The position numbers were made by a program, and so were the translations under genes. Shown piece by piece: positions 7,332 to 40,903 of a stretch of 64,000 nt of DNA. The notes under the pieces were generated by a model that worked only from the letters and a program-made list of their open reading frames with translations, was not told the origin of the DNA and did no database searches. The stretch lies in assembly GCA_030295235.1 (NCBI GenBank), contig AP026140.1:434001-498000 (forward strand). The letters are read 5' to 3'. Positions within the stretch are counted from its first letter, which is position 1. Every line of letters starts with the position of its first letter. The stretch is from Fistulifera solaris. Its lineage: Eukaryota.

Positions 7332-9118
7332 TTATGAATTCACACGAGGGCGCTTGCTGTTGCCGACCGTTGATGTTCCCACGTGTTCCGCATCGTTTAA
7401 TTGTGCATTTTGTAAGTCTTGTATATCCAAGTCAATTTCATTTGCATCTTCCTCAATGTCATCAATATCAATAGCATTTTCATCTTGCTCGTTGTCGTCC
7501 AAATCGATCACATTTGCATCGTCATCATCCTCAACTGGCAAAGTAGTATGCAACGACGTTCCGGCCTCTCCATAATCGAGTACAATTTCGTTCTCATCCA
7601 CTGGTGCCTTGTCATCTTCAACTCTATTCATGGAATAAGGGATTGTGACAATGTGGTCCAAACCGAGTTTCCGAAGGAAATCATCGGTCTGAGGATTCCC
7701 CATGGGATGTAGAGGAGGTGGAAGTTGTCGAGGAAGTGGAGCGGGAGGGCCTTGATGGGCCGGTACTGTCGGTTGGAAAGCATCCGGATCAATGTTCAAC
7801 GAATTAGAGGAACGAATGGCATCGACATCTTCGCGGCTGACGGACACGATATCTACTGGGACACGGACCGGTCCTCGGCTATTACTCGACAAATGATGCG
7901 TTTTGCGAAGCACTGCCAACCATTCTGGGTCATACGAAAGGCCGTTCGACTCGTCGTCTTCACCAACAGGTTTTTCAATATGAACAATGGAGAGAAAGTG
8001 CCTACGAGGTAGACATTTGTCGAGCGAAAGAAATTGTGTCATCATGTCGGTCAAGTCGGCCCCCGAACATGGATCTTTTCCTGTCATGGCAATAAACTCA
8101 GTCGTTTGATCGGATTTTTGGTCGGAAGAAGGCGGGACGCTTGGTGCTGGTGACTTTATCACTTGCGACGGCGTCAACTGCAAGTTGGTTTCTTGCTTCA
8201 CGTCTTTTTCTTTACTGTGTCTCATCGTTGCTTTAAATTTGACATGCAAATGCGCCGAAAACCACCACGGAGGCTGAATCGCCTGCAACAATTCTTCGTT
8301 CGGAGGACTCCCCAAACAGTTCTGTTGCACTTCGTCGCGAAAGAATGGCTTCTTCTTTAACAATCCTTCCGTATTTCCGTGTTGCTCAATGCCACGAGGC
8401 CAGTCATGGCTCAACATAATGTTCACTACGGGTGATTCTGGGCGAATCGCTTTCGCTGTCTGGGCATAACATTTCATTCGATACACATCCACTTCTCGCA
8501 CGTGGTAGATACTTCGTAACGCCGATGGATCCAAAGGAAACGTTTCATAGCGTCCTTTCTGGTAATCATGTGATTTATAAATCCCGCTGATTCCTCCTAT
8601 GCGAATTCCTTTGTAGCGCACCACTCCGGCGGCTCCTATATAATAAATATTGGGCGCCACCCATCCACCATAATACAACTCCTGCAAAGGCTGTGAGGCT
8701 TCATGATTGCCTCCTATAAAGACGGTCAAGATGGGAGCCCGTTGCTGTCCACTGTAATAGCGATAGAATGATCCCAGAGTCCGATACTTCGGAGGAACCG
8801 CCATGCTGTGAAAATCCGCTGTATTCCGCACGGATTGAAAATCACCACAACACAACAGCAAATCAATGGGACGTCCCTTTGCTTCCTCATGACGTGCTAA
8901 GCGTTCGTAAATCGCCTCAATTCTCCGTGACAACATCCTTCAACGGCAATTGTCACGGAAGTATCGGAAACTACCCCGAGTTCTTCAATCTCCAAGTCGA
9001 TGGGAGTGTCGTCTCTTCGTCCGCTGTTATTGTTGTGAAATCGGCGTCCACCACGTCGTCCTCCACGAAATTCACGGCCTCCACCTCGAGAAAAGCCTCC
9101 ACGGTGAAAAGATCGCAT
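7332..9118 (-). CDS. DBR1: RNA lariat debranching enzyme (one frameshift near 8918)
   Basis: 'IAVEGCCHGEL' (ORF 8897..9118) joins 'DLLLCCGDFQ', 'FIGGNHEAS', 'LSHDWP', 'WFSAHLHVKF', 'FLSLDKCLPRRHFL' (ORF 7332..8936). One missing G restores GELEAIYERL. Confidence 0.95.
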
Positions 9119-9250
9119 GTAAAAGGAAACAAATAAGATGTGTACTGGGTGCTAATACAATAGAAGAGAGACCAATAATTGTCGATGAAATTCCATAGAA
9201 ACAAAGTCAACAACAAAAAAAAATAGAATGAGCCACAAAAAAGGCAAAAG

Positions 9251-9323
9251 TGGAGGATGCCGGAATCGAACCGGCGACCTTGTGCATGCTAAGCACACGC
9301 TCTACCAACTGAGCTAAACCCCC
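9251..9323 (-). tRNA. trnA-AGC: tRNA-Ala (anticodon AGC)
   Basis: Reverse complement GGGGGTTTAGCTCAGTTGGTAGAGCGTGTGCTTAGCATGCACAAGGTCGCCGGTTCGATTCCGGCATCCTCCA. 73-nt cloverleaf, G3:U70 Ala determinant, T-runs downstream. Confidence 0.97.
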
Positions 9324-13900: not shown

Positions 13901-15743
13901 TGTTTCGAAGAATCGCTCCACCAGATCGGATGTTTTTCAAGTCTGTGTATTGTTCGGTAAAACTCATGAGCGTCGGAATGAATTGAGCAAGCTCACGGGT
14001 CGCCTCGCACGAGGATACGCCGCAGGCCAGAAGGCTCTCAGCGTGCTGTCGAACAATAAGATCGATGTGCGTTTCTGCTTCTTGTCGTGTAAAATGTTGG
14101 TGTTTGAGAACCTCTTCAAACAACTGGTGGCGCATTGTACCGAACAAAGGAGCCTTGTCTGTAATCGCGATGAGTGAGTATCACACGGAATCATGAGTGC
14201 TCTCACAGCCATCCAGCTACTTACCTGAAATACCGGTAGAGCCCAATCGATCTTTCAATACCGCGCGGCGGGTACAGGCAACAGCTTCACTGATCGTGGT
14301 AGGGGTCAGCAGCAGATCCGGATGGAAGATTACGACCATGTCGTCGAGCACATCCATGGTAGACAAGGTCAGAGGAAGTGCCGACACGTCCGTCCGGCGG
14401 ATCCCTGTCAGTGAACAAACATGGATGATATCTCCAGGTGCCACATCGGTTTGGTACCATTCACCTTTCAAGTAAATCAGGCCGTCTGCTGGCCATTGTG
14501 GCTCATCACGAACGCGAAACACGCCGTCGGAATCAGCTTTGTGTGCTTGTCTTGGATTCCAGTGGAGCATTTCTTCTTTCCACGCTGCGACAGAGAGTAT
14601 CAACGTAAAATCTCCTCTCGATTGATCTCTGGACACATTTACGACTTTGTAGCGTGAAAAGACCAAGAATCCGGGATTTTGTGGCTCCATAGTCATAGCC
14701 TGGTTCTTGGCAAGAATCTCCATATCATGCTGCAGGGCGGCCATCGCATTGTCGGGTTGCGATTGAGCTTGCATTATAAAGTCATCCATGGCATCGAAAT
14801 CGATATCGGGGAACTCTCCAAACAGATCTGTGTCTTGTGGGGGTGCACTGGACGTGTTATTGCCAGGTTTAGCAGCTGCTGATGGAGCGGGTATGTGACT
14901 TGACTGCGGTTCGTTGTTTGACTTGTTGAAGGGGAGCTTGTTCGTAGCAGTAGTCTGACGGGCTGGGACTGAAACGTTTGGAGGTTGTACGTTTTGAAGA
15001 TGGGTATTCGCAATAGCAGGCGAAAGTCGAGAATTGGAGATTGTAGCGGTTTTGTCACTCTGTTGTGACATAGTTTCTTTGCTCACACAAAAGGAAGCCG
15101 ATTGTGTGGCCTTGGATACTAGGGAATCAATTGCCTCAATATCATCTACGCTGAAGTTGAACTCATCAAACTCGTCCAAAGTATCTTCGGCTGTAGCATT
15201 TGGGCTTTGACACGATGATATCGCTTCGGAGGAAAGATTATTTGAAGGGACGTTCGAGCTTTCTGGAGAAGGTGTCTTTATTTGTTTCAGGATGTCGTCA
15301 AAGTCAGAGGTTCCGCTGATAGCGAGCGGTGTGCTTTTACAAGGATTGTCTCTAGTTTGAATTCGGGGGGTGAAAATGTTGTTGAAATTCTTTTCTTTCA
15401 GCTTTGCCATGATCGAAACTTCGCGACGCTGTCGTTTTCGGCTCTTGACGATGCCCGGAAAATGTGCGGTCGTATCCTTCAAGATAGTAATTTGGGACAC
15501 CAGATTTGGGTTCTTTTCAATGGGTAGCAACGGTCGCCGAACATCTCCCGGCGGACTCTCGTCTAGCAGCGGATCGGGCGAGTCAAAGTCCGCGACGCGT
15601 CGGACTGTCGTACTTTCGTTCCATTGAATGGTGTCTTCCTCTTGCGTGTGCGCGTATCCCGACACAGTTTTCGAATCTCTCTTCCCGATGGGTGTTGTTT
15701 CATCTATTCGAGATTCTTTCATATTACTGCTTCGATTCATCAT
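10988..15743 (-). CDS. DNA2: DNA2 nuclease/helicase, 5 exons, one frameshift near 12025
   Basis: '[23 protein letters not shown]', 'GLKGNID', 'ELKTG', '[10 protein letters not shown]', 'QGLPGTGKT', 'DEAGQ', 'GDHKQLPP', 'QYRM', 'TIDRYQGRD', '[10 protein letters not shown]'. GT-AG introns at about 14159-14224, 12425-12500, 11809-11873 and 11296-11365. Confidence 0.95.
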
Positions 15744-24761: not shown

Positions 24762-27700
24762 CTAGTGACGATGGGAATCCTTCCGCTCGTCGTCGAGAAG
24801 GAGTCCTCGGAGACTGGCTTCCTCTTCTCGAAGAATATCGGGTCGCAGTTGATTTCGTATGGCCAGCAAGCTGAACGATATAGCTTCAGCGACGCCACTG
24901 GCCGGTGCTGCAATCGCCACAGGGATACCTCGAATCAGGCTACTTCCGGCACCGGTTGCGCCACTTCGGTGATATTCGCGATACGGCACAATTACAATAC
25001 GGTAATTGGCTGCCTGCAAACCCCTCGAAAGGCTCTCGAGTGCGTGCTGTGACGCGTCGTTGAGAGTCCTCGGTATGTGTATCGGCCGAGAGGGCAGTGT
25101 GCTGCTGAAACCGCCCGTATTTAGTACAGCATGACGAGGGCTGGTGAGACTGGCGACTGTACTTGCGAAAAACTCCGTCACTCGCGATGACAGTGTAAAT
25201 GTTTCGTAAGAAACGGCGTTGGTAAAAGAAGTCGTGCCCGCGCGAAAAGCCTTTCGAATGCTTTCCCCGTTTTGCAAGGCTTCCCAAGGGAGAACGACGA
25301 GATCGATCGCACTGCCGCCTACGTGCGTGATAGGTTGAAAAGGTGCTGCGTGTGTCACAAATTTGTGCAGCTGGGTGGCGCACACGTCTTGTATGTATTG
25401 CCTCAAAAGAATTCCGATGTTCGGCCCTAACCCGACTTCATTGTTGACGATTACTTCTTGAAGTGTAACAACCATCCCGTCAAGTGGACTCAAATTAACC
25501 AGCTCTACCACAGCTCCATTCTTTAAAGCATCTGTATCAATCTTCTCAGGTTTGTAGTCTACCTTAATTTTCAACGGGCGGACTCGAAACGTTTTAAACA
25601 GTGGCGGAGGTAGGGCGTGCAAACCTTCCGGCAAAGGCTCATCAGCTTTGTCGGCATCACTGTCGTCACCGGTATTGAAAAAGGCCAAGGCAAACCGAAT
25701 GGCTCGCTGGTCGAGCGAACATCGTAGTGGGAGTAGTTTCAGCGCGAATTCGGCTTCATCGCTGACGATTTCATTTTCCGGGGTGACGCGTACTACCGGA
25801 TGCCAACTGACCATCTAAAAAAAGCATTAGTGAACATGCAGAGCAAAATGCCAAAAAGCAAAAAGGCCTTACCTTAATGGCAGCCAATCCGTCGTTTGTA
25901 TTTCGCGGATGTTCTTCATTGTTTACCCATTCGCCGACCATCTTCGTGGGCCTGTCCCTGCTAATCGTTTCAGCTACAAAGAAATCGCCTATTTTCATAT
26001 CCAGGCAAGACGCTAAGCGGTGATCCGCCGAATCCTCAAAACTATCAAGTCGCAGCTGTGTCCCTGAAACCGATATTTGAACGTATTTGTTCGTGCGACG
26101 GGAAAGCCGTCGAATATCACTTTGGTCTTTTAGTTTTTTGGTACGGTCTTCTGGCAATGGCAAATCGCTGAAGATAGTAGATGAACTGGCTTTGTCGTCC
26201 ACAAGAGTACTCATGAGTTTGAGTCTCGTCTCCTTACCGCTGACAAGATTGCCATCTGAGCTGAGACTTTCAGATGTATCGTCGCTCAAACCCGATTCCT
26301 TTTCGCTCCGATCTTTCGGACTAATACTCCCAATAACGAAGGGGGGAGCTCGTTGCAAGACTTCGTAACTTCTCGTCCAGCATCTCAGGCCAGTCATATC
26401 CATCGAAGCAACGAATTTTCAAAGTGAAATCATGGATTAATATCCGACTTTTCACGTAACACTGTGAACTATTTCCACAATATTTTGATGCGCCCATGTC
26501 GCCTTCCCCCAGAGGGTCCGATACGGGCTGAAGTCGAAAGTGGTGGTTGATAATTGGTGGACTTTTCAAAGTTGTTGACTTACTTTGAAGAGTCATTGTT
26601 CTTTCATCGTTTTCAGTTATAGGTCCTGTGAACCATCTGGCGGATTGCTCTTCGCCAGCAGGTATATCATTGAATAATGGATCAGCATCAATGGTAGTCC
26701 AATCGTACCCATCAAGAAGGAAGTCTTTCAACCGATCATTTCTTAAATCAGTTCCAACTTGTGGCCGCAAGGCACTTTGCTGTTTCAATGAACTGAGCAT
26801 TGGTGTAGATGGTTTACGAGTTTCACTGTCATCATTATGCACCTCCGTGACAGAATCAAAGAAAACTTCGTCGTCTCCACAAGAATTCAGACTTTTCACG
26901 GCCCGTAACGCTTCGTCATCGATGGCACTCAATTCACGCGACAATTCGCCAATCGTGCTAAGTAAGACCGAAAAGGAGTCTTTGCAACAAAATAGAGCGA
27001 GCTCTCCGATTGTAAGACTGACGGTCGTTGATGATTCGATTGTGTTCTTTCGGGTGCTGTCGGACAAGGAAATGACAGCGTCAAGCAGACTTAATGTCAC
27101 CAGCGTGCGAAAATTCATTTTTCGCTGTACATCGTCCGGCGAGAGCTCAGCTTTTGCTTGTGACATCCACGCATCCAAAGATATTTGCCACGGTTGAAAT
27201 AGGGCGATGCCTCCCAGCGCGCAGCTATTTTCATAGTTGTATGGAAAGCGATTGTTGCATAGATAGAGTGATACATCACATAGGGTCACGGAGAACGACT
27301 GCGAAGGTCCTCGAGGTAGCAACATGTTTGTAGAAAAGCGTAGATCACCAAGTCGAACGATTACGCGAGATGGCGTGCTGAACTTTATCGGCGAAACATA
27401 GTCCACATTACAATCGGCAAGAGAGACGCCTATTCTCGAAAGGGTAGCACTGGTACTTAATGAATGCCCACATTCGTCCTCCGTGGTACTGGCGGAGTTT
27501 CCGCTAACCGGGTCGAAGATACCCCTAAGCTTTGTCGGCCAATTTCTTGATTCATAATCGATTCGCAACGTCATATCGTAAAGAGTTATTTGAAAGTGAG
27601 TTTCCAACATATCATCGGATGAGTCAGTCCTTTCAGGCAACGAGAAATCCATTAAGACGCATGGACTTGTTGGTGAAATCGGTTTGAACAACTTGGAACG

Positions 27701-30500
27701 GTGAAATATTGGCCGTGCAAGCGAATTCTGAGTCAAAGAGAGCCTTTTTCTAAGAAAATACGCACGTCTCCTTATACAGCCAGAACTATCATTGATTTTC
27801 TGTTTGCCAAGTTTGCCAACTTGCATCGAAAAAGCATTGTTAGAGAACAAGGGGAAGTCACAGTCTTTCCAATTCCAAAAATCTTACCTTCGACGAAGTT
27901 TACGTCTTGTACCATCAAGCGCCCCTGGATCAAATCAGTTCCACATACAACTCCGTGTAGTTTTAGTCCATGTCCCTTAATTACAAACGATTGACCAAGG
28001 TTGTCGTGTGCGATCGTGTCATCGTGTACAGCTAACGTGGTCGATGTGACGGATACACGCAAAGAAGTAGAGGGAAGGACCGCTCTACATGCCCTATTGT
28101 TTCCAGAATCAAGATCAGCAAGGGTAGTCTCCGGTTTTGAAATACATCGGAAGATCGACAGCAATGTTGAAAGTTCTGTAGACGTCAAGTCACCGACAAA
28201 CTCGGGAACTTGAATACTAATGACGGTGTTACTTTTCGCCGCGTTTCTTAACATTTCTTGCTGGGCGCCAACTTGCCGTATCCGACTACGCGAATGAGGG
28301 TCTACTCCACCTAACTTGGAACAAAGAACACGATCTATTCTAGCATCATCATCTTCGTCCTCTTGACGATGTTTGAATGAAGAAATCGGGGGTACCACTG
28401 GAAATTCTACTTGTCCTCTTGAGTGGCTACATTGGCCTTCCTCATTTGACCCACCGATACAATCTCGCCATAACTTTATTTTTACTGGAATAGTCGGTTG
28501 GACTTCCGACCTACCGGCCATTGCAAGGACATCGAACCTCCGACAACATTGACCGCCACTTCTCGCACTATTTGGAAACGAAACAAATGCAATGGCATCG
28601 TCGAAGCTGAGCGATAAGTCCTCATCCGAAGCTTCTTGCTTGAAATTTATAAAAATCGACACGTTTCGTACGTCAACACCGAGATGAGCGTTGCCCGCGT
28701 TACATGGAGCCACCTCATACACACTTCGCTGAAAAGCATTTTCCCAGTTTCCTTCTTTCAAAATTGGTAACTTAAAATGAACGCTTGGGCATGAAATTGA
28801 AATTTGTAATGAAGCACCTTCTGTATCCTGTTTCAAAGAATCTACCTCGCTTGCGCTTTCGATTGCTTCAATGTTTTGTATAGCAGCAGCAAATTTCGAC
28901 ATTCTTGCAAGGGTGTGGAGATCACATTCGTACACCAGAGGTAGCAGTTCGAGATCGATATCGAGTTTCCCTTCGCAGCTCTTACGTACGTTCAGCGAGA
29001 TACAGGTCGACTGTACGAGTACCTCGTCATTTCTTTCAATCAGACCACCAGAGCCATATAAAAAGGTAAAAATAGGACGAATCTCTACCTTTCGAGAAAC
29101 GCGCGAGTGTACCTCTGTATTGCTAATCCGCGAGTCTTCAACCACAAAATTGCCTATCACCAGTACGTGCTCCTGTGAATTTGCAAAGATGTTGGATGTA
29201 AAATCAATATCTTTGACCGACGCCAGTGCATACGCTTCTTCTCTCCGACTGGACAGCTCCCCGTCATTCGAGAATACGATTTTTAGGCCTAATTCCTTCA
29301 GGTGAAATCGTATTGTCGCCATCAATGCCCCAGAATGTTGGGGTGATCCATTTCGACTCATTGCTATAGAATCATGAAGCATAGCGGAATACTGATAGAA
29401 GCTCTTCTCGTTGGCATCAAAAACATATCAAACGATACTTCGTCCTTCGACCCATTCGGTGGAAAATCAGGGACCAGGATACCACCTCTCAATTCATTCC
29501 TTTCCACTTGCTCACGAGCCGCTCGATACTGTTCCATCATTGTATTCAGAAAATCTAAATCCTCCGCTTCGTAGTCCGACTCCACCTCCGACGGTGACAG
29601 ATTCTCGACTTCGCGTATGTCGTTCTCTCGAAAATGTGCCGAGTACGTGTGAACAAATTTCCGTAAAAGGACCAAGGAAGTCGCATCGACTGATACATTC
29701 AGTTTTTGACTCAAATGGACTTCACAATCCGTTTCTGCCCTACGTTCCGTTACCGAGTCGCCCGTATTGTATTCAATGACCCGCAAGGTGATGCGGTTGA
29801 CGCCTTCCAACAATACTACTGAAGCACGATACGCATCCGAATTTCCTTCGCGTTCTCCAATGCTGATCGAAGTCTTTTGAAACATGACGGTCTTGTGAAA
29901 TTTCGTTTCGTACTGCTGGGTGGTTGACTTGCCGACGGAAGCCGTTTGATACGAAAAACTCTGACAGCGCAATTCCAACCAAGTCTGCTTAGTTCCTTCC
30001 CTATCCCAACACCGTATTGAAATATCTCTTATTTCGACCGACAAATCCAGTGATTTTAAAGCCGCATCAAGATACAGAGACAGTAAACTTTTCGTCTCGG
30101 CATTCGGAGTAACAGGAGTTGTTGTTACGGACGCGGGGATCTGTGGTTCTAGCTCCAGAAAAACACCCTCCAACTCAATCTTTGCCGCTAAAGCAATCCG
30201 AGGTAATGATGTTCCCCACGCCGTGCGCAACTTTTCCCATGCGGCATTCTCATCGGAAACATCGTCTTGGAAGCGCAGATGCACCGTCAATTCCCGCATC
30301 ATAGCTTTCTTTACTCGCAAAGGAAGTGTCGCGAGTCGTTCATGATCCGTTCGGAAACGGACATTGCGCAAGGTGCAACGTCCATCGGTGATGGAAACAT
30401 CCAAACGAGAGTGCAGTTGTTGCAACGATTCTTGGTCCAAAATGGGACCCAAAACACGACGCAACAAAAAGGCGTAAAGGCGATGTTTCCAAGGTATCAT
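24762..30500 (-). CDS. ATG2: Autophagy protein ATG2 (introns near 27830-27887 and 25815-25872; frameshifts near 29410 and 26345)
   Basis: Chorein_N-like start 'WKHRLYAFLLRRVLGPIL', 'FDGYDW', 'LKLLPLRCSLDQRAIRF', 'KVDYKP', 'ELVNLSPLDG', and C-terminal 'RGIPVAIAAPASGVAEAIS..LLAIRNQLRPD'. Confidence 0.92.
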
Positions 30501-31040
30501 TGTATTCAATCGATTCGCTTGTGCATAATCGTAACGACAGCTTCCAGTGAAATGAAGGAAATCAACTGTAGAGACAGATGGTGAAGAACTGAGTGCAACC
30601 AAAGTCGTGATTGACAGCGTCACAATCGACACCTGTTCTTTTAAAATTGAGAAAACAGCGATGTGAAAAAGGCCGACAAGTATACCCGAAGCAGAAAAAG
30701 AGCTTGAGGCTTTCTCTTTGATGGGGCGACAAGGGCACTTGACTATCTTCAATCTACTTTATTGTTGAAACGCATTATATCGTCTTCATTGTCGTCGTCA
30801 CGTTTCGCAACCGAACAAAAGAAAAGAATTTGCATCGAGTCACGTGTCAAGTAAGTCACGAAATAACGTCGTATGTAGCCGAACTAGAGCAAAAGCACTA
30901 CTGAAAGTTATTGACTCGTGAATTTGACGTCAATGACGATCTACCTTTCGCAGATCTTCAACCATGGTATCTTCATCACATTTTTTTAACCATGGTGAAT
31001 GGTGATGATTCTGGCACCCGAGCCGCTGTCTTTACTTGTC

Positions 31041-32712
31041 ATGCCTCTAAAACGATTGAGTCTCTGCCTGTCACTGCTTTTTACTGCTGTCGCATTTTTC
31101 ACGCCGAATCATCGAAGAAGAAAATGTCTCTCCAAATTGTGTCTTTCCCATTCCGAAGATGGAATTACACTCGAGTTGACAAAATTGTTGCGCAACAAGG
31201 GGTTACGGAAGCTCAAAGAAGAGAAGACGACCGAGTCATTGGCACTCAATTTTGAAAGACTGCTGGGCAAGGCAGAGTTTGCGAATCAAACGATTTCTTC
31301 GTCATCTAGAAAGACGAACTATCGCAAACGTAATTCCCTTCTCGCCGAATTCGACAATTTACGGACGACAAGCGATATACGAATGCCTCAAAATGACACG
31401 CTATCTTGCGTTCAAATACATCAGAATCACACAGAGCTGTCACCATACTATCGTCGGGATCGACGCGATTACGAAACAATGGATTGCAGGAACAATGACG
31501 ACATTGCGGACCCCACAGGACTTTGCGCATTGTTACAGGTGCGTTTTTTGGCGAGAAAAGCCAAAGATTTTGATCAAATAGCCCATCTAGACCTTCAACT
31601 TCAGCGACAACACGGAGTGCGCGTGTCCGATTATCCCCGATTATGGACCCGACGCACCGATGCCTCCAAAGCGTCGATGCGTCAAAGGATGAGGAAACGA
31701 AAGGCTCGCATGATGAAACTCTTTGGATTACTGGGACACCCGTATGTGAAAATCAAAAGTGCTGTGGTCCATCACAATGCATCAATTATCCCCGGGAGCC
31801 ATGTTCATGCATCGTTGTCGGCCTTGACGCGCTATCAATTGGAAGGAAGATACGATCGAGCGGAAGCCATCAAGTTAGAGTTGTCGTTGTGTGGAATTCG
31901 TATTCACGATCAACTGCTGTTGTGGACGAACGATGCCAACGTAGAATTTGAAATGTTGGAAACCATTCCGGACCGAGTGAATGAAATACCTGTTTACACG
32001 GAAGTCAAAGACGACGTTTCCCCCAATCAAACAGCATCCATCCAGTATGATACGGGCAGACTTCGATTTGGTGGACGGACGATGGAAGAGGATATTTTAC
32101 GCAGACACCAACGGATACAGCAGCTGCTGCTTCAGCGATCCGAAGCTGATGCCAGAGGAGAATCGACTTTGTTTGCGTTGATTACGAATGAGTTGAGGAG
32201 TACTTATCAAGTAGCAATCGATGATGAACAAAGAACATGGCGAATTCTTAAAGCCACTCCCAATGTGGAAGAATCAATATCATTGCGCACGGATGACTAC
32301 ACAACATCTTCTTTTGCAGCCCTCCTGTTTGGAGAACAGTCAAGGGACTACACTAGCGACACCACTTATCGACCAAGTCAAAAATCACTTCCAATCGACA
32401 ATTCAATCTACCAACAAAGAATAGAAGAGCTTGTTCAAGAGCGCATTCACTTGCGCGAAGAGGGCAGATACCTAGAGGCGGATGCGGTTCGACGAGAGTT
32501 ATGGCACACCTATGTAAGTCATCGTAGAGCTGTTTTCGATGAAGCTATGTCGTACTGCTAATAATTTGGTATGTTCAACTCTCATGTTCTCTAATCTTCG
32601 TCCAAGAACGTCGGCGTGAATGACAAGCTCCGTCAGTACAGTGTTGGAGGAGTTTACGATACTAGCACTACCCACCATTTGCCTGCTAAAAAGAAAAAGC
32701 AATAACATTTAG
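31041..32712 (+). CDS. Putative plastid-targeted protein with four repeats resembling the CysRS C-terminal helical (anticodon-binding) motif; 2 exons
   Basis: Leader 'MPLKRLSLCLSLLFTAVA-FF'. Repeats such as 'IEELVQERIHLREEGRYLEADAVRRELW'. Intron GTAAGT(32514)..AG(~32606) gives last exon 'NVGVNDKLRQYSV...NNI*'. Confidence 0.65.
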
Positions 32713-32952: not shown

Positions 32953-32958
32953 AAAAAA
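32953..32958 (-). terminator. RNA polymerase III terminator (T6) of tRNA-Leu
   Basis: TTTTTT on the minus strand starting 8 nt after the tRNA 3' end. Confidence 0.75.
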
Positions 32959-32965
32959 GAATTTT

Positions 32966-33123
32966 TGATGTCGGCAGGATTCGAACCTGCGAGATTGCTC
33001 ATTACGGCCTAAACGTAACGCCTTAACCTGAGAGATAGTCGAGAACACATGCATGAGGTATCGTCATCGTGCGGTGGGGAGAGGGTACTTGTGACACGAT
33101 ACTTACCACTCGGCCACGACATC
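32966..33123 (-). tRNA. trnL-UAG: tRNA-Leu (anticodon UAG) interrupted in the D-loop by a 79-nt GT-AG intron (33028-33106)
   Basis: Exon 1 (33123-33107) GATGTCGTGGCCGAGTG plus exon 2 (33027-32966) GTTAAGGCGTTACGTTTAGGCCGTAATGAGCAATCTCGCAGGTTCGAATCCTGCCGACATCA. Perfect 7-bp acceptor stem, 5-bp anticodon and T stems, type II variable arm, A discriminator. Confidence 0.93.
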
Positions 33124-33259
33124 TAACGAAGCACAGATGAGAAATCTAGGTACAAAGCCAGTTTGTAATTATTTGATCTAAAGTTATTTATGGCCATCAA
33201 CATCGCAGCCATCAAAACTTTTTCACAATTCCTCTTTTCTTCCACTTTCATTAACAATC

Positions 33260-35118
33260 ATGCATAAAGCCAAGCTCGCTTTGGCGCTGTTTCTGCTATC
33301 AGCTGTAAGAAACGACGCATTCCGATCGGAATATCGACGGTCCCGACCCAACACTCTACTATTCCATGCACAAGCCGGCGAAGGCATCGGAATCGGCATC
33401 GATTTGGGAACAACACGCTCGGCGGTCGCTGTATTATCCGAAAATAATGTCCCAACGATCATACCCATCCCTCACAATGGTCGGACGATGCCGTCGGCCG
33501 TAGCGTTTGATCCAGACAGTGGACACGTATGGGTCGGTCAAGAAGCGTGCGATCGTCAGAATGAAGTGGGTGTCTTTCGGAATGTCAAGAGGATACTGGG
33601 TACGGGAGGAAAGTTAACCAAGTCCGTGGCCAAGGCAGTGCCCTTTCTGGTACCGAATCGAGACGGAAAAACGTACAAAAGGATACATTACTGAATCAGA
33701 TTCAGGATGCTCAGGAATATCCGACTCTACTCCAATTTCCGCATAACAATACACGCTTCTCACCCGAAATGATTTCGGCGCACGTACTGAAACATTTGGT
33801 ACAAGCTGCCGAAGATGCGTCTGGACAAACAGTCACGAGGGCGGTAATTGGAGTGCCCGCCTACTTTCACGATGAACAGCGCGCCGCCACGGTGCGGGCG
33901 GCGGAAATGGCCGGTCTAACTCGGGTCAAGCTGTTGCGCGAGCCCGAGGCCGCGGCGTTGGCGTACGGAATCGGCAAAGAACAAATATCTTCTTCTATCG
34001 AAGATGAACTGGTTTTGGTGTTTGATTTGGGCGGCGGTACTTTTGATGTTTCCATGCTACTCGTGGGTGGTGGAGTCACCGAAGTTCTTTGTACGTCGGG
34101 CAATTCTCAATTGGGTGGTGCCGACTTGGACAACCGGGTCGCGGATCATTGCTGGAAGGTTTTGTCTCACCACGTACCCGCTATCAAAGCATCGGCGTGG
34201 TCTGAGGAAGCGAAAAATGGACTAGTCAGAGCCGCGGAGCAGATACGCATTGCTCTGAGTAACGCGAAAAAAGTAGACTTGGCTTTACCGGTGACACAAG
34301 AGGGGTGGTGCAATGTTTTGACGGGAAAAGAAGTTCTTTTGCCCGTTGAAGCCGACGAGAGTTACAGCGAGACGGGTATACTGGATGACTCTCATGTTCG
34401 CTGTTGCTTGACGAGGAGGACTCTGGAAAAATTGTGTGACAATGAGCTACAAGCACTGTTAAGACCCATACGAGAGGTTGCTATAGTTGCTGGAGCTTTG
34501 CTGCCTGGTGATGCGAATCCAACTGCCGTAGAGGCTGCTCGCGATATGGAAGAACAATATATCGAGTCCCGGGACATGGAATTTGCGGACTTTTATCCAG
34601 ACAATGAGCAGGAAGACGAACAACCGGCAGAAGAAAACGCAGAGCTGTTGCTAGCAATTCAGGACATGGATATGAAGGCCGCGAAAAAGGCACAGCAAAA
34701 AGGACGAAAAAGGGCTAGACAAGTAGCAAGAGACGAGCGAAAATACCGGGAGGAAAAGAAGAAAATACAAACCAGTACTGCAGCTATGGATATGGACCGC
34801 GTAAAAGTTCGTGACGGCATATCAGGACGACCTATTTCTCGGGTTGTTCTAGTTGGAGGAACTACGCGGATGCCTGCTATTGGACGATTGATTGCTGCTT
34901 TGACAGGTGTGGTTCCGCAAAGAACCGTCAACCCCGATGAAGCCGTTGCACTTGGATGTGCAGCGAAAGTCGGAGTCTTGGACGGAATCGAAGGAATGGG
35001 AACTGTTTTGAATCCAATGCAGGCAGCAATTTTGAAAGCCGTAGCCCGACAACAAGGAAAGGAACAGATGCAAGAGGATGATGACTTTGATGCAGACTTT
35101 GATTTCGACGAAGACTGA
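33260..35118 (+). CDS. Atypical Hsp70-family protein (ATPase domain only), signal peptide and probable plastid leader; frameshift near 33680
   Basis: 'GIGIDLGTTRS', 'RAVIGVPAYF', 'EPEAAALAYG', 'VFDLGGGTFDVS', 'VVLVGGTTRMP', 'VNPDEAVALG'. The protein ends about 50 aa later. Confidence 0.88.
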
Positions 35119-37315: not shown

Positions 37316-38679
37316 TTACTCGTCTTCATCAAAATCGTCCATGTCTTCATCGGACTCATCTTCGTCCCAATCGTCTTCTTCATATTCCTCATCCGGCACG
37401 TCCTCCCCTTCCATGCTACGACAAATCTCTGCCATACGATCTTGAAGGCGCTGTTTCCGTGCTGGTAGGATGTCGGAGACACGAAGATTTGCCCAGGAGC
37501 AAAAGACTACCGCAACAGAAGCGAACAGAGAAGAGTTCGACGCAGCAGTGCTTGACCCATTAGATGAATTGAGCCGGGTTTGCGAGAAGGCTGCGGCTTT
37601 TCGCATATTTCGCGACATTTGTTTGAGGCGCAATATCTCTCTATCAATGATCGATTCATTGAGAATGTGCGGTAAGACTTGCTGGATGAATGGGACCTGA
37701 GGAAGGAAGGGGTCCCACCGGTAAGCCTGTACAGCGATACACGCAGGGTACGCTTTCAAAAGTAAAATCACCATTTCCTGCACCAGCGGTCGGTTGCAAG
37801 CATTCGCCAGATGGTGAATTGGCAATGACCCTTCGCCGTGGACTTGTTTGCGAATCAGACGCGGATGCTGGGAAATAAGGTAACGGCAAATCTTTGCCAT
37901 ATTCGGGGTAGACTTGATGTTTACGTTTTCGAATTCATTCTCTTTCTGACCCATTGCGAAGCAAACGTCATGTAGCACTGTTCTGCCCGGAATAGATTCA
38001 TGGTACACTGCCTCGGTGTACTGTTCCGCCATCCAGATGAACAAATCGGCGTCGGGTTCTTCCCAGCCTCTCACGATTGCGTGTAAAGGATACTTAGGCA
38101 CCATAGGGTCAGAACGATCTATCTCACGAAGCCCTTGCGGGTATAGTTCGTAAAACTTTCGAACTGTTTGTAGATCACACCGATTATTACCATACGCATT
38201 CAACAATTCCACGTGAGGCCGTAGCTCTTGACACAGTTCATGCTGAAACACCCACGGATAGTGTTCTACAATCCACGGAAATAATTCACCGTAGCCATCC
38301 CGAGGCAGCATATGAATCGTTGCAAATTCAATGAATCCATCGATATCGGGGCGGGCCCATAGTAGAGCGTGCGGGTTTGTCTCAATGAGTAACTGCATCG
38401 TGTCTGCACAAGTACCGTAGGTCTTTTGCAGACAACTTCTAAAAGAGACCATTGGAGACAGTCGTTCGAAACAGCACTGGCAAGAAGAGGGTGCGCTGTC
38501 ACTTCTTCCTTGAAGTGTTCCTGCAACAGCGCGGCAGCATCTTTCACGGATGCTTCATCGCGGTGTCGACGAAACAGATCGTAAGCCTCTTGAAAGAGCC
38601 GGTAAAACTTTCTTCCCAATTCCGATGGTAACTTATCATCGGTAATTGGCTTCGATAAGTCAGAACATTCGCTCGACAT
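37316..38679 (-). CDS. Tandem family copy 1: ankyrin-like repeat protein with acidic tail (frameshift near 38428)
   Basis: Shared family motifs 'WSLLEV', 'IETNPHALLW', 'YPWVFQH', 'FYELYPQGLRE', 'WMAEQY.EAVYHE', 'TPNMAKICR', 'LPIHHLA..CNRPLVQEM'. Confidence 0.8.
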
Positions 38680-39318: not shown

Positions 39319-40903
39319 TTAATCGATTCGACCAAAGCCAAGTCTGTCCGCAATAGTGAAATAGTCGATTGCAGAGCGGTCTTCTTGTTGTTCGGTACTA
39401 GTGCCGTTGTTTGCAATACCAGGTTGAGGCTCGCTATCTTCATTGTACTCTTCTCCTCCATCGGAGATGTCGCTTTCTTCGCTCTCTGAATCAGAAAAAC
39501 AATCTTCATTACAATCGTCTTCGTCGTCGATTATACCGGGCATAATTCCTTCTCGGATATTGTACTCAAAATACTACCTTCGATGTTGCTTTGCGTTGTC
39601 ATCATTGCCACCGTGGACTACATCTTCCCATTCTTCGTCTAAATTGTCCTCTCCTTCCATCAGACGACAAATGCCTGCGATGCGCTCTTCAATGTGTCGC
39701 TTTCAAGTGGGCAAACTTTCAGAAACTTGTAGGCTAGCCCACGAGCAAAACGATTCGGCAGCGGCACAGAAGAGAGAAGAGCCTGGCTCGCTCGTAGTAC
39801 AAGATTTGTCTTTCATTAACAGCACTGCCTTCTCCATACTTTGCAATATCTGGGTTAACATCAAAATTTCTTGGTTGATCTCTATTTCGTCGATAATGAG
39901 AGGATGAACTTGCTCGATGAATGGGATGCTACGAAGGTCGGAATCTTCTATACAGTCAGGGAACGCCTTTAGCAGAAGAATAGCCATTTCCTGCACCAGA
40001 GGTCGATTGCAAGATTTCGCTAGCAAATGAATTGGCAGGGTTCCACGGCCCGTACTTGTTTCGCGAATCAGACGAGGATGTTTGGCAATCAAAAAACGAC
40101 AAATGTTTGCCATGTTGAGCGTGCACCGAGACGGCAAACGCGGGTGACTCTCTTTGTTAGCCATAATGCAGCAAACCTCATGTAGCACCGTATACCCCGG
40201 TTCCCATTCGTGGTAGACTGCCTTGGGGTACTGCTCTGCCATCCAAATAACAAGATCCACCGGGGGCTCGGCGTTTCCTTCCAGAATTGCCGCTATAGGA
40301 TACTTGGGCGTTGAATCCAGTTTGCTTTTCTCCCGCAGCCCTCGCGGATATAATTCGTAAAACTTTCGGATGGTTTCGGCATCACAAATACCACTGTCGG
40401 TGTATGCGCGCGCACCATCGCCAAGTGCGCGGCGGCATGACTCGACACTGTTTGTGGTGAAGCACCCACGGATAGCGCTCCGCCACCCACAGAGGAAGTT
40501 TCGGGCAACCGTATTCGGCCAGCATGTTGATCGCTGCCGTTCTACCAAACCCATCATCCGCACGATGGGCCCATAACAGTGCGCGTCTGGGTTTATTTCA
40601 ATTAAAAATCGGATAGTGTCTTGACAGACAAAATGCGTCCTTTCAATAAACACCTCCAATAACGACCATTTGAAAAAGTCTTTGAAAATAGTGCTAGCCA
40701 GTACGGGATGCGCCCGTAACAGCTGCTGTCACACGTTGATGCCAGACTGGGACAGCAGCTTGTACAGCTTTCGATGGTGCGATTTTGACTAAACAGTTCG
40801 TAGGCTTCCGTGAAGACGGCATAGAACGTTAAGTCGCAAGTCTTGGGGCAATTGAGAATCGAGAAGAGGTTTCCCCGACAGCTCGGGCCTTTAAGCTAGA
40901 CAT
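39319..40903 (-). pseudogene. Tandem family copy 2 (multiple frameshifts; pseudogene or assembly error)
   Basis: Same motifs in ORF 39703..40659; acidic tail in ORF 39319..39543; probable ATG at 40903. Confidence 0.7.

What the first reader, a model, noticed from the sequence alone, without database searches (positions are those of the whole stretch)
32966..33123. tRNA-Leu(UAG) gene split in the D-loop by a spliceosomal-type (GT-AG) intron
Seen in sequence: removing 33106-33028 (79 nt, GTAAGTATCG...ACCTCATGCATGTGTTCTCGACTATCTCTCAG) gives a clean tRNA-Leu cloverleaf with fully paired acceptor, anticodon and T stems. The insert falls between the two conserved D-loop Gs. It has the GTAAGT donor, a pyrimidine-rich CAG acceptor and the size range of the mRNA introns in this window. 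It has no T4 run that would stop Pol III, the A box (TGGCCGAGTGG) survives because the intron starts with G, and the B box and a T6 terminator are intact. Established: nuclear tRNA introns normally sit at 37/38 and are cut by the TSEN endonuclease. D-loop introns in archaea and Cyanidioschyzon use bulge-helix-bulge motifs, and spliceosomal introns in Pol III transcripts are known mainly from fungal U6 snRNA. Inference: this may be a tRNA matured by the spliceosome, a class that standard tRNA finders would miss. I know of no described case, but I cannot search the literature here.
Basis: partly seen in the sequence, partly recalled or inferred. Interest (0 to 1): 0.95.

Follow-up and report, generated by a model that had tools for sequence, protein, structure and literature searches.

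The report
Spliceosome-type intron in diatom tRNA gene
A leucine tRNA gene of the diatom Fistulifera solaris is split in its D-loop by a 79-base insert that looks like an ordinary messenger-RNA intron; related diatoms appear to keep it and the sister gene copy seems to lack it exactly, so it may be the first tRNA matured by the spliceosome, though no RNA evidence was available.

Summary
Removing window 33028-33106 (minus strand, 79 nt, GTAAGT...CTCTCAG) gives a 79-nt class II tRNA-Leu(UAG). All checked universal positions, the A and B boxes and a T6 terminator are present. ARAGORN and Rfam miss the unspliced gene.

- **Real DNA:** the insert also stands in contigs of two public runs.
- **Organism:** one protein of the window is 99% identical to Fistulifera solaris, an allodiploid diatom.
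- **Sister copy:** a second, about 6.5% diverged form of the locus joins the exons exactly at the insert's borders. The published tRNA census lists Leu-UAG in subgenome Fso_l only. The sister copy therefore seems intronless, and the window seems to be the missed Fso_h copy.
- **Relatives:** more diverged relatives keep an insert at the same site. In one of them about 80 other letters lie between ends that still align as GTAAGT and AG, and the exons are nearly unchanged.
- **Rival structure:** no bulge-helix-bulge motif can be drawn.
- **Fit:** length, donor, pyrimidine tract and acceptor match mRNA introns of the window.
- **Prior reports:** nine literature searches found none.

Best reading (0.55): a functional tRNA gene whose intron the spliceosome removes. 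No RNA data could be obtained. The intronless sister copy leaves a decaying gene possible.

The parts
33107..33123 (-). tRNA-Leu(UAG) exon 1: acceptor 5' strand, U8, G9, D-stem 5' strand and D-loop up to G18 (17 nt)
   Evidence: aligned with 0 differences in the X4 relative (record 20, 33101-33125)
33028..33106 (-). 79-nt insert with spliceosomal-type ends (GTAAGT ... CTATCTCTCAG), between G18 and G19 of the D-loop
   Evidence: present in X1 record 3 and X2 record 11; not repeated elsewhere in the window
33101..33106 (-). 5' splice-site-like hexamer GTAAGT
   Evidence: still aligned in the X4 contig and in the second X2 contig although the interior is not (joints 33029->33101 and 33032->33101)
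33053..33057 (-). candidate branch-point motif CTCAT (A 26 nt before the 3' end of the insert); weak assignment
   Evidence: comparison introns have yTnAy at 8-17 nt (one further match at 35 nt); the motif consensus is recalled
33028..33047 (-). pyrimidine-rich tract (13 of 17) and CAG acceptor
   Evidence: the last 2 nt (X4) or 5 nt (second X2 contig) remain aligned in relatives
32966..33027 (-). tRNA-Leu(UAG) exon 2: G19 onward, D-stem 3' strand, anticodon arm (UAG), long variable arm, T arm, acceptor 3' strand, discriminator A (62 nt)
   Evidence: 2 differences in 74 aligned nt in the X4 relative
33106..33116 (-). A-box match TGGCCGAGTGG, completed by the first G of the insert
   Evidence: consensus recalled
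32977..32987 (-). B-box match GGTTCGAATCC, 118 bp from the A box because of the insert
   Evidence: one of only 2 strict matches in the window, the other being in tRNA-Ala
32953..32958 (-). T6 run, a Pol III terminator-like site 8 nt after the discriminator base

Best explanation
This is a real nuclear tRNA-Leu(UAG) gene, probably the copy in the Fso_h subgenome of the allodiploid pennate diatom Fistulifera solaris. A 79-nt intron of the spliceosomal (U2-type GT-AG) kind interrupts it between G18 and G19 of the D-loop.

Shown:
- The interrupted gene, its intact cloverleaf after exact removal, and its Pol III-type A box, B box and terminator.
- The mRNA-intron-like ends and size of the insert.
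- The presence of the insert in independent contigs.
- The lack of a BHB motif.

Shown indirectly, from alignment coordinates only:
- Diverged relatives hold an insert at the same site with aligned GTAAGT and AG ends, an unalignable interior and nearly unchanged exons.
- A second form of the locus in the same organism joins the exons exactly.

Inferred:
- The gene has stayed under purifying selection with its intron, so the intron must be removed.
- The machine that recognises GTAAGT...YAG, the spliceosome, removes it as a lariat.
- This happens either on the Pol III precursor, as for fission-yeast U6, or on a Pol II transcript running from the divergent Hsp70 promoter 137 bp away. RNase P and RNase Z would trim the ends afterwards.
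- The intron is probably older than the split of the two subgenomes and was lost exactly in the Fso_l lineage. That pattern is typical of loss through a spliced RNA copy.
For: (1) ARAGORN calls tRNA-Leu(tag) only after removal of 33028-33106. All 15 checked universal positions and the anticodon are present. Control: 0 tRNA calls at any locus other than this one and the intact tRNA-Ala, among 67 motifs and 5,605 removals.

(2) The ends are GTAAGT and 13/17 pyrimidines + CAG, at 79 nt. Eight comparison introns of the window are 58-122 nt, have donors GTAAGT (3 of 8), GTGAGT, GTACGT, GTAGGT, GTATGT and GTAAGG (2), have 7-14/17 pyrimidines and end in YAG. Two of them are anchored by Pfam profile continuity: Dna2 81|84 and Sec1 427|455. 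Joint chance of such ends is about 8e-7.

(3) The insert is real DNA: X1 record 3 has 0 differences and X2 record 11 has 5.

(4) Relatives. X4 record 20 is collinear, with pieces 32500-32524, 32602-32662, 32956-33029 (2 differences) and 33101-33125 (0 differences), and '80 letters between' 33029 and 33101. The second X2 contig has a joint 33032->33101. The ends stay aligned while the interior and flanks fall below 80% likeness.

(5) A second X1 contig (depth 18.4) joins 33025->33105, 'cut +2', both = 3. That equals exact absence of 33028-33106. Table S3 of PMC5935921 lists Leu-UAG once, in Fso_l only.

(6) In overlapping stretches the X2 second form is 43/345 diverged, against 11/172 and 12/183 for the X1 second form. 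The insert-bearing lineage is thus the more distant one, which favours an old intron and a later exact loss.

(7) BHB: 0 of 128 tested arrangements have a 4/4 central helix. 0 of 1,102 structures within 3 kcal/mol show a strict or relaxed BHB with the other arms fixed.

(8) There is no T run above 2 in the insert, so a Pol III read-through is possible.

(9) Precedent: the spliceosome removes the intron of the Pol III-made U6 of S. pombe, and spliceosomal introns are reported in U1, U2 and U5 snRNA genes and rRNA genes (PMC5855946, passages).
Against: - No RNA evidence of any kind: no junction read, precursor or lariat.
- An intronless homeologue seems to sit in the same nucleus. The split copy may therefore be dispensable in F. 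solaris and free to decay.
- I never saw the relatives' sequences, only alignment coordinates. For the X1 and X2 joints the tool says 'between: not known'. The X2 second form and X4 may be one lineage.
- The only yTnAy motif in the usual range lies 26 nt from the 3' end, further than the 8-17 nt of most matches in the comparison introns (one lies at 35 nt). Two of the eight have none.
- The exon side of the donor is GTG|, not the usual MAG| (recalled consensus).
- Exon 1 is 17 nt, and a Pol III transcript has no cap. From memory, Pol III transcripts were reported not to be spliced in mammalian cells.
- In the predicted fold the donor and the pyrimidine tract pair with each other in a stable rod (-40.1 kcal/mol). 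That could hinder spliceosome access, or could be a signal for some other nuclease.
- The eight comparison introns were picked from about 190 heuristic candidates with a score that itself rewards GTAAGT-likeness and pyrimidines, so that comparison is partly circular.
- A scan of JGI metagenome contigs for the same split D-arm found 3 matches, none a tRNA.
Confidence: 0.55

Rival explanations
1. Decaying duplicate. The insert, whatever its origin, inactivates the Fso_h copy. The intronless Fso_l homeologue supplies all tRNA-Leu(UAG), and the split gene is a young pseudogene tolerated because the hybrid genome is redundant.
For: An exact-boundary joint in a second X1 contig and Leu-UAG listed for Fso_l only (Table S3) indicate an intact sister copy in the same nucleus. 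No RNA evidence shows that the split copy is used.
Against: The exons show no defect: all 15 checked universal positions and every stem are intact. The A box, B box and terminator are intact. More diverged relatives hold an insert at the same site with exons at 0/17 and at most 2/62 differences, while the interior and flanks are unalignable at 80%. That is not expected of a dead gene, and it is not expected of an insertion that arose only after hybridisation.
Confidence: 0.2
2. Endonuclease-type non-canonical tRNA intron. As in the red algae Cyanidioschyzon merolae and Chondrus crispus and in nucleomorphs, the tRNA splicing endonuclease cuts the D-loop intron at a structural motif and a tRNA ligase joins the exons. 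The GT..AG ends are a by-product of origin or chance.
For: D-loop tRNA introns exist in C. merolae (PMC3978253 passages; PMC13578239 passages), and diatoms carry red-algal ancestry (recalled). The precursor folds so that exon 1 and the insert's 5' end pair with the insert's 3' end and the start of exon 2, which puts both junctions on opposite strands of one rod. P. tricornutum has introns in tRNA genes for eight amino acids (PMC3531208 passages).
Against: No BHB: 0 of 128 arrangements have a full central helix, and 0 of 1,102 near-optimal structures place the junctions in 3-nt bulges. Chance of GTAAGT plus pyrimidine tract plus YAG is about 8e-7. GTAAGT stays aligned in relatives although in the fold it pairs with insert sequence that does not stay aligned. 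The BHB geometry I tested is recalled, not taken from a tool.
Confidence: 0.15
3. Assembly or sequencing artefact: the insert is not in the organism's DNA.
For: The window has at least one 1-nt homopolymer difference from short-read contigs at 33676 (table 4), so the assembly is not error-free.
Against: Two runs carry the insert in contigs that span it: X1 record 3 with 0 differences and X2 record 11 with 5 differences, 2 of them inside the insert. X1 may be the sample the window was assembled from. X2 is a metagenome.
Confidence: 0.01

Closest known systems
Spliceosomal (mRNA-type) introns in U6 snRNA genes of Schizosaccharomyces pombe and other fungi, and in U1, U2 and U5 snRNA and rRNA genes (PMC5855946, passages)
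   Same: A GT-AG intron with canonical splice sites sits inside a short, structured, non-coding RNA gene that Pol II does not make (U6: Pol III; rRNA: Pol I). The introns are otherwise unconserved in sequence and scattered among lineages. The S. pombe U6 intron is removed by the spliceosome.
   Different: The host here is a tRNA, which is not part of the spliceosome. The favoured origin for U6 introns, reverse splicing into an RNA at the catalytic centre, therefore does not apply readily. tRNAs have their own dedicated intron pathway. No tRNA appears in the list of ncRNAs with spliceosomal introns in that review.
Non-canonical (ectopic) nuclear tRNA introns of Cyanidioschyzon merolae, Chondrus crispus and nucleomorphs (PMC3978253; PMC13578239)
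   Same: A nuclear tRNA gene of an alga is interrupted outside position 37/38, here in the D-loop. Standard tRNA finders miss it.
   Different: Those introns are described as flanked by BHB or BHB-like motifs and cut by the tRNA endonuclease. Here no BHB can be drawn and the ends are GTAAGT...YAG. At 79 nt this insert also seems longer than those, whose typical sizes I give only from memory.
Canonical eukaryotic tRNA introns at 37/38, removed by TSEN and tRNA ligase (PMC12530127 abstract and passages; PMC10275265 passages)
   Same: An intervening sequence in a nuclear tRNA gene that must be removed to give a working tRNA.
   Different: The position is G18/G19 rather than 37/38. There is no pairing with the anticodon. 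The ends are splice-site-like. The cited 2025 paper treats spliceosomal, tRNA and XBP1 introns as three unrelated classes.
Transposon-borne 'introner' introns of algae (recalled from Huff et al. 2016 and later surveys; a review, PMC11282704, was seen in a search listing only)
   Same: A short insert that brings or creates splice sites. A 3-nt direct repeat (GGT) stands at both junctions and could be a target-site duplication.
   Different: No second copy of the insert was found in the 64-kb window, and I saw no terminal inverted repeat by eye. The whole genome could not be searched. Relatives have an insert of other sequence and length at the same site, which points to an old intron rather than a recent element.

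Membership tests
Class II tRNA gene (tRNA-Leu) | Cloverleaf with 7-bp acceptor, D arm, 5-bp anticodon stem, long variable arm, 5-bp T stem and the universal nucleotides | tested here: met
   Met after removal of 33028-33106: ARAGORN calls tRNA-Leu(tag), 79 nt; all 15 checked universal positions, the TAG anticodon and discriminator A are present.
Class II tRNA gene (tRNA-Leu) | Internal Pol III promoter (A and B boxes) and a downstream T-run terminator | tested here: met
   A box at 33106-33116, B box at 32977-32987, T6 at 32953-32958. The boxes are 118 bp apart because of the insert. Tolerance of that spacing is recalled, not tested.
Class II tRNA gene (tRNA-Leu) | Expressed, processed and charged | not testable with these tools
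   No run on record as RNA holds the stretch.
Spliceosomal U2-type GT-AG intron | 5' splice site GT with an extended match to GTRAGT | tested here: met
   GTAAGT at 33106-33101; the same hexamer occurs in 3 of 8 comparison introns; window frequency 2.2e-4 per position.
Spliceosomal U2-type GT-AG intron | Pyrimidine tract and YAG at the 3' end | tested here: met
   13/17 pyrimidines plus CAG; comparison introns have 7-14/17.
Spliceosomal U2-type GT-AG intron | Branch-point motif at the usual distance | tested here: inconclusive
   One yTnAy (CTCAT) lies 26 nt from the 3' end. In the comparison introns most matches lie at 8-17 nt, one at 35 nt, and 2 of the 8 have none.
Spliceosomal U2-type GT-AG intron | Length within the organism's intron range | tested here: met
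   79 nt against 58-122 nt for 8 ORF-joining introns, 2 of them Pfam-anchored.
Spliceosomal U2-type GT-AG intron | Splice-site motifs conserved while the interior drifts | tested here: met
   X4 record 20 and the second X2 contig stay aligned over GTAAGT and AG/CTCAG only. This comes from coordinates; the sequences were not seen.
Spliceosomal U2-type GT-AG intron | Removed as a lariat by the spliceosome | not testable with these tools
   It needs RNA data or experiments.
BHB-dependent non-canonical tRNA intron (archaeal / red-algal type) | Two 3-nt bulges holding the cut sites, separated by a 4-bp helix (or a relaxed form with one bulge) | tested here: not met
   0 of 128 arrangements have 4/4 central pairs, and the best have 3/4. 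0 of 1,102 structures within 3 kcal/mol have a strict or relaxed BHB. The geometry is recalled.
Canonical eukaryotic tRNA intron | Position 37/38, one nucleotide 3' of the anticodon | tested here: not met
   The insert lies between G18 and G19. ARAGORN's intron mode finds only an aberrant alternative.
Introner / transposon-derived intron | Many near-identical copies in the genome, with terminal repeats and a target-site duplication | tested here: inconclusive
   No other copy in the 64-kb window: best blastn-short hits are 10-11 nt, and the repeat search found none. A 3-nt GGT repeat stands at the junctions. No genome is held.

The most novel reading that the evidence does not exclude
Diatoms of the Fistulifera lineage mature at least one tRNA with the spliceosome, and this gene is the first seen of a hidden class. 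tRNA genes split by mRNA-type introns would be invisible to tRNAscan-SE, ARAGORN and Rfam. They would account for part of the 'missing' isoacceptors in diatom tRNA censuses: in F. solaris only 34 anticodon types were found, Leu-UAG, Leu-AAG and Phe-GAA are absent from Fso_h, and no Cys, His or Tyr gene was predicted at all. This would link the spliceosomal and tRNA intron pathways, which are held to be unrelated, and would show either splicing of Pol III transcripts beyond U6 or tRNA production from Pol II transcripts.
Probability: 0.3. Interest if true: 0.95.

Novelty: new variant of a known kind. Interest (0 to 1): 0.8.

Why it matters
Textbooks and current reviews treat spliceosomal introns and tRNA introns as separate, unrelated classes (PMC12530127, PMC10275265 and PMC13578239, passages read). 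A tRNA gene that depends on the spliceosome would break that separation.

- It would add tRNA to the short list of non-Pol II RNAs with spliceosomal introns (U6, rRNA).
- It would raise a concrete question: how is a 17-nt, uncapped first exon recognised, or is this tRNA made by Pol II?
- It has a practical side. Standard tRNA finders miss such genes, so tRNA repertoires, and the codon-usage or tRNA-adaptation analyses built on them, may be systematically incomplete in diatoms and perhaps other intron-rich protists.
- The presence/absence pair in the two F. solaris subgenomes is a natural experiment, and genome editing has been reported for this species (search listing only).

Tried and rejected
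- **RNA evidence:** The look-up of sequencing runs listed no holder on record as RNA. All four runs laid were Logan contigs, so expression, strand and junction use could not be addressed.
- **Whole genome:** none is held. Other split tRNAs, other copies of the insert and the homeologous locus could not be read directly.
- **Metagenome contigs:** an exact 21-nt anticodon-arm pattern gave 0 matches. A generic split-D-arm pattern (GTAAG, 55-85 nt, AG, D-loop remainder) gave 3 matches, L001-L003. None has a tRNA 3' half downstream, so I read them as chance.
- **Genome contigs of prokaryotes:** the T-arm plus acceptor pattern gave 0 matches.
- **Hsp70 'intron':** the frame break of the neighbouring Hsp70 gene at about 33676 looked like a comparison intron. 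It is a 1-nt homopolymer difference between the window and short-read contigs (table 4), so I dropped it.
- **Heuristic intron list:** about 190 candidates, mostly noise. I kept 8 that join long ORFs over 58-122 nt. The choice favours good donors, and only 2 are independently anchored.
- **Faulty fold:** I used wrong indices for two arms, so the constraint did not apply. I repeated it correctly.
- **Protein atlas:** it gave only 'Eukaryota' for the Hsp70 gene.
- **Earlier findings of this scan:** four look-ups, one failed and three answered. None concerned tRNA introns or this genome.
- **Repeats:** the insert has no copy in 30-36 kb or in the whole window.
- **Literature:** nine searches found no spliceosomal intron in a tRNA gene. 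The library lacks most subscription journals, and the PDF supplements of PMC5935921 could not be read.
Full report
**What is there.**
On the minus strand of window 32966-33123 lie three pieces:
- a 17-nt segment (33123-33107),
- a 79-nt insert (33106-33028, GTAAGTATCG...CTATCTCTCAG),
- a 62-nt segment (33027-32966).

ARAGORN in default mode finds only tRNA-Ala(agc) at 9250-9323 in the whole window. Rfam gives the region 15.2 bits for the 3' part alone, against a gathering score of 29, and nothing at E<=1 in a scan of the whole window.

When the two outer segments are joined by coordinates, ARAGORN calls a 79-nt tRNA-Leu(tag) with a 7-bp acceptor stem, a 5-bp anticodon stem, a long variable arm and a 5-bp T stem. 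All 15 universal positions I checked, the TAG anticodon and discriminator A are as expected (the list of positions is recalled). ARAGORN's intron mode on the unspliced stretch gives only an aberrant 94-nt Leu(aag) with mispaired stems.

Four cut registers (-1 to +2) give the same product, because GGT stands at both junctions. Only one of them is GT..AG.

**Is it more than chance?**
I took all 67 T-loop-like motifs (GTTCRA) of the window on both strands. Upstream of each I removed every GT..AG segment of 30-300 nt, which made 5,605 candidates, and ran ARAGORN. There were 95 tRNA calls: 83 at the intact tRNA-Ala gene, where the removal lies outside the gene, 12 at this locus and 0 elsewhere.

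From the window's own frequencies, GTAAGT occurs at 2.2e-4 per position and '>=13 of 17 pyrimidines then YAG' at 9.1e-4. The joint chance over four registers is about 8e-7.

**Is the insert real DNA?**
Yes, as far as contigs can show. Contigs of two public runs span it: X1 record 3 (338 nt, 32999-33336, 0 differences) and X2 record 11 (596 nt, 33003-33598, 5 differences, two inside the insert). X1 may be the sample the window was assembled from. X2 is a metagenome.

**Transcription signals.**
- The A-box match TGGCCGAGTGG (33106-33116) is completed by the insert's first G.
- The B box GGTTCGAATCC lies at 32977-32987. It is one of only two strict matches in the window, the other being in tRNA-Ala.
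- A T6 run follows at 32953-32958.
- The longest T run inside the insert is 2.

Pol III could therefore read through. The insert puts the boxes 118 bp apart. That TFIIIC tolerates this spacing is recalled, not tested.

The gene lies in an intergenic gap. Its 5' end is 137 bp from the start codon (33260) of a divergently oriented Hsp70-family gene.

**Comparison with mRNA introns of the window.**
A heuristic that joins adjacent long ORFs gave about 190 mostly noisy candidates. I kept eight that join long ORFs over short distances. This choice favours good donors, so the comparison is partly circular.

Two of the eight are anchored independently by Pfam continuity across separately translated exons:
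- Dna2, profile position 81 | 84 across 14159-14224,
- Sec1, profile position 427 | 455 across 3962-4026.

| Feature | Eight comparison introns | tRNA insert |
|---|---|---|
| Length | 58-122 nt | 79 nt |
| Donor | GTAAGT (3), GTAAGG (2), GTGAGT, GTACGT, GTAGGT, GTATGT | GTAAGT |
| Pyrimidines in the last 17 nt before YAG | 7-14 | 13 |
| Acceptor | CAG or TAG | CAG |
| yTnAy motif, distance to 3' end | mostly 8-17 nt, one at 35 nt; two introns have none | one, at 26 nt |

The branch-point distance is the weakest fit.

An apparent intron in the Hsp70 gene turned out to be a 1-nt homopolymer difference between the window and the short-read contigs at 33676 (table 4).

**The rival structure.**
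A bulge-helix-bulge motif marks the non-canonical tRNA introns of archaea and red algae. I tested for it with a geometry I recalled.
- Over 4 registers, 16 offsets and 2 geometries (128 arrangements), none has a 4/4 central helix. The best have 3/4.
- With the acceptor, anticodon, variable and T arms fixed, 0 of 1,102 structures within 3 kcal/mol put the junctions in one or two 3-nt bulges next to a central helix with at least 3 of 4 pairs. An earlier attempt had wrong indices.

Instead, the minimum-energy fold (-40.1 kcal/mol) pairs exon 1 and the donor with the pyrimidine tract and the first four bases of exon 2 in a rod.

**The organism.**
The Sec1-family exon of the window is 99% identical, over 95% of its length, to a protein that NCBI names as from Fistulifera solaris. 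The next hit is at 92%, and the other named hits are pennate diatoms.

[quoted passage not shown] The preprint also describes a nanopore assembly, which would fit the homopolymer slip.

**The homeologue.**
X1 and X2 both hold a second form of the whole locus. In X1 it is 11/172 and 12/183 diverged in the Hsp70 5' region.

One X1 contig of this second form (depth 18.4) joins 33025 to 33105. The tool adds 'cut +2' and three letters that fit either side. This equals exact absence of 33028-33106. The same contig also jumps from 33130 to 33248, so it is a genomic form with a diverged spacer, not a cDNA. The tool marks 'between: not known', so this alone does not prove an intronless gene.

The published census supplies the missing half. 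With tRNAscan-SE and ARAGORN the authors found 37 and 39 tRNA genes in Fso_h and Fso_l, 34 anticodon types in all, and suspected that the set was incomplete (PMC5935921, section 6). Their Table S3 (supplement 1, part 1) lists Leu-UAG once, in Fso_l (scaffold00007, which also holds an Ala-AGC gene), and not in Fso_h.

I infer that the window is the Fso_h copy, missed because of the insert, and that the exact-boundary contig is the intronless Fso_l copy. CUA codons are in use at 7.69 per thousand (Table S1).

**Relatives.**
X4 record 20 (793 nt, depth 4) is collinear with the window in four pieces:
- 32500-32524,
- 32602-32662 (10 differences),
- 32956-33029 (2 differences),
- 33101-33125 (0 differences).

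The tool reports '80 letters between' 33029 and 33101. That relative therefore has both exons nearly unchanged and an insert of about 88 nt at the same site. Only the first six letters (GTAAGT) and the last two (AG) of that insert still align.

The second X2 contig (record 12, depth 8.53) shows the same pattern, with a joint 33032->33101. It is 43/345 diverged in the Hsp70 5' region. That is about twice the distance of the X1 second form over overlapping positions.

If distance reflects branching order, the insert-bearing lineages bracket the two subgenomes. The simplest history is then an old intron lost exactly in the Fso_l lineage. This is an inference from coordinates and counts. I could not read these contigs, and X4 and the X2 second form may be one lineage.

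The point that matters for function is this: interior and flanks have drifted beyond 80% likeness, while the exons and the two ends have not.

**Mechanism.**
Conserved exons imply a working gene, so the insert must be removed. What is conserved at its ends is what the spliceosome reads. No endonuclease motif can be drawn.

I therefore favour removal by the spliceosome (0.55). It would act either on a Pol III precursor, as for the U6 snRNA of S. pombe (PMC5855946, section 'Splicing of U6 snRNA'), or on a Pol II transcript from the divergent promoter. RNase P and RNase Z would trim the ends.

The steps from 'conserved' to 'spliced by the spliceosome' are inferred. Against this reading:
- There is no RNA evidence.
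- The intronless sister copy makes this copy dispensable in the hybrid.
- The branch point is poor.
- The exon side of the donor, GTG|, is not the usual consensus.
- Exon 1 is tiny and would be uncapped.
- The donor pairs with the pyrimidine tract in the predicted fold.

The rivals are a decaying duplicate (0.2), an endonuclease-type intron with an unrecognised motif (0.15) and an artefact (0.01).

**What is known.**
Nine full-text searches found no report of a spliceosomal intron in a tRNA gene.
- Reviews and papers of which I read passages treat spliceosomal and tRNA introns as separate classes (PMC12530127, abstract and passages; PMC10275265).
- They describe eukaryotic non-canonical tRNA introns only in certain algae, with BHB-like structures (PMC3978253; PMC13578239). 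In PMC4090602 my term search found no mention of the spliceosome.
- PlantRNA reports introns in tRNA genes for eight amino acids in P. tricornutum. The passages I read state the 37/38 position only for land plants and do not give it for the diatom (PMC3531208).
- The U6 review lists spliceosomal introns in U6, U1, U2 and U5 snRNA genes and in rRNA genes, not in tRNA.

The search library lacks most subscription journals, so an earlier report cannot be excluded.

**Searches for more cases.**
- The window holds no other split tRNA.
- JGI metagenome contigs gave 0 matches to the anticodon arm and 3 chance matches to a generic split-D-arm pattern.
- Prokaryotic genome contigs gave 0 matches.
- No genome is held for the window.

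The census gaps in Table S3 are a lead that more hidden genes may exist: Leu-AAG and Phe-GAA are absent from Fso_h, and no Cys, His or Tyr gene was predicted. The authors' own explanation, an incomplete draft, is equally open.

**Verdict.**
If it holds, this is a new variant of a known kind: a spliceosomal intron in a non-coding, non-Pol II gene, here for the first time a tRNA.

Noticed in passing
window 33676 (Hsp70-family gene, + strand, 33260-35118): The gene's reading frame breaks at a run of A. The X1 contig there, and one of two X2 contigs, carry one extra A (table 4). The window thus has a 1-nt homopolymer difference, probably a long-read assembly slip, and the gene is probably a single exon.
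   Followed up: yes
PMC5935921 Table S3 (not window coordinates): The published F. solaris tRNA census has only 34 anticodon types. Leu-AAG and Phe-GAA, like Leu-UAG, are listed for Fso_l only, and no Cys, His or Tyr gene is listed in either subgenome. This could reflect draft gaps, as the authors say, or more tRNA genes hidden by unusual introns.
   Followed up: partly
window 33028-33123 (-): In the predicted precursor fold, exon 1 positions 8-17 and the donor pair with the pyrimidine tract and the first 4 nt of exon 2 in a rod (-40.1 kcal/mol). The two junctions then lie on opposite strands about 5 bp apart. This is not a BHB, and its meaning is unknown.
   Followed up: partly
window 33105-33107 and 33026-33028 (-): The same three letters (GGT on the gene strand) stand at both junctions, so four cut registers give one product. 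This could be a target-site duplication from an insertion, or simply the usual G|GT splice context.
   Followed up: partly
window 7335-8939 (-): An ORF with Metallophos and DBR1 C-terminal domains (lariat debranching enzyme) lies in the same window. This is a coincidence, but it is the enzyme one would perturb to test for a lariat.
   Followed up: no
window 37319-38554 and 39706-40728 (-): Two neighbouring long ORFs both give weak, sub-threshold matches to the same Pfam family (HTH_upst_double_PIN). They may be tandem paralogues.
   Followed up: no
window 24765-30758 (-): A run of long ORFs (two with ATG2_CAD matches, three without any Pfam match) looks like one large multi-exon ATG2-type gene. 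Some ORF breaks may be assembly frame slips rather than introns.
   Followed up: no
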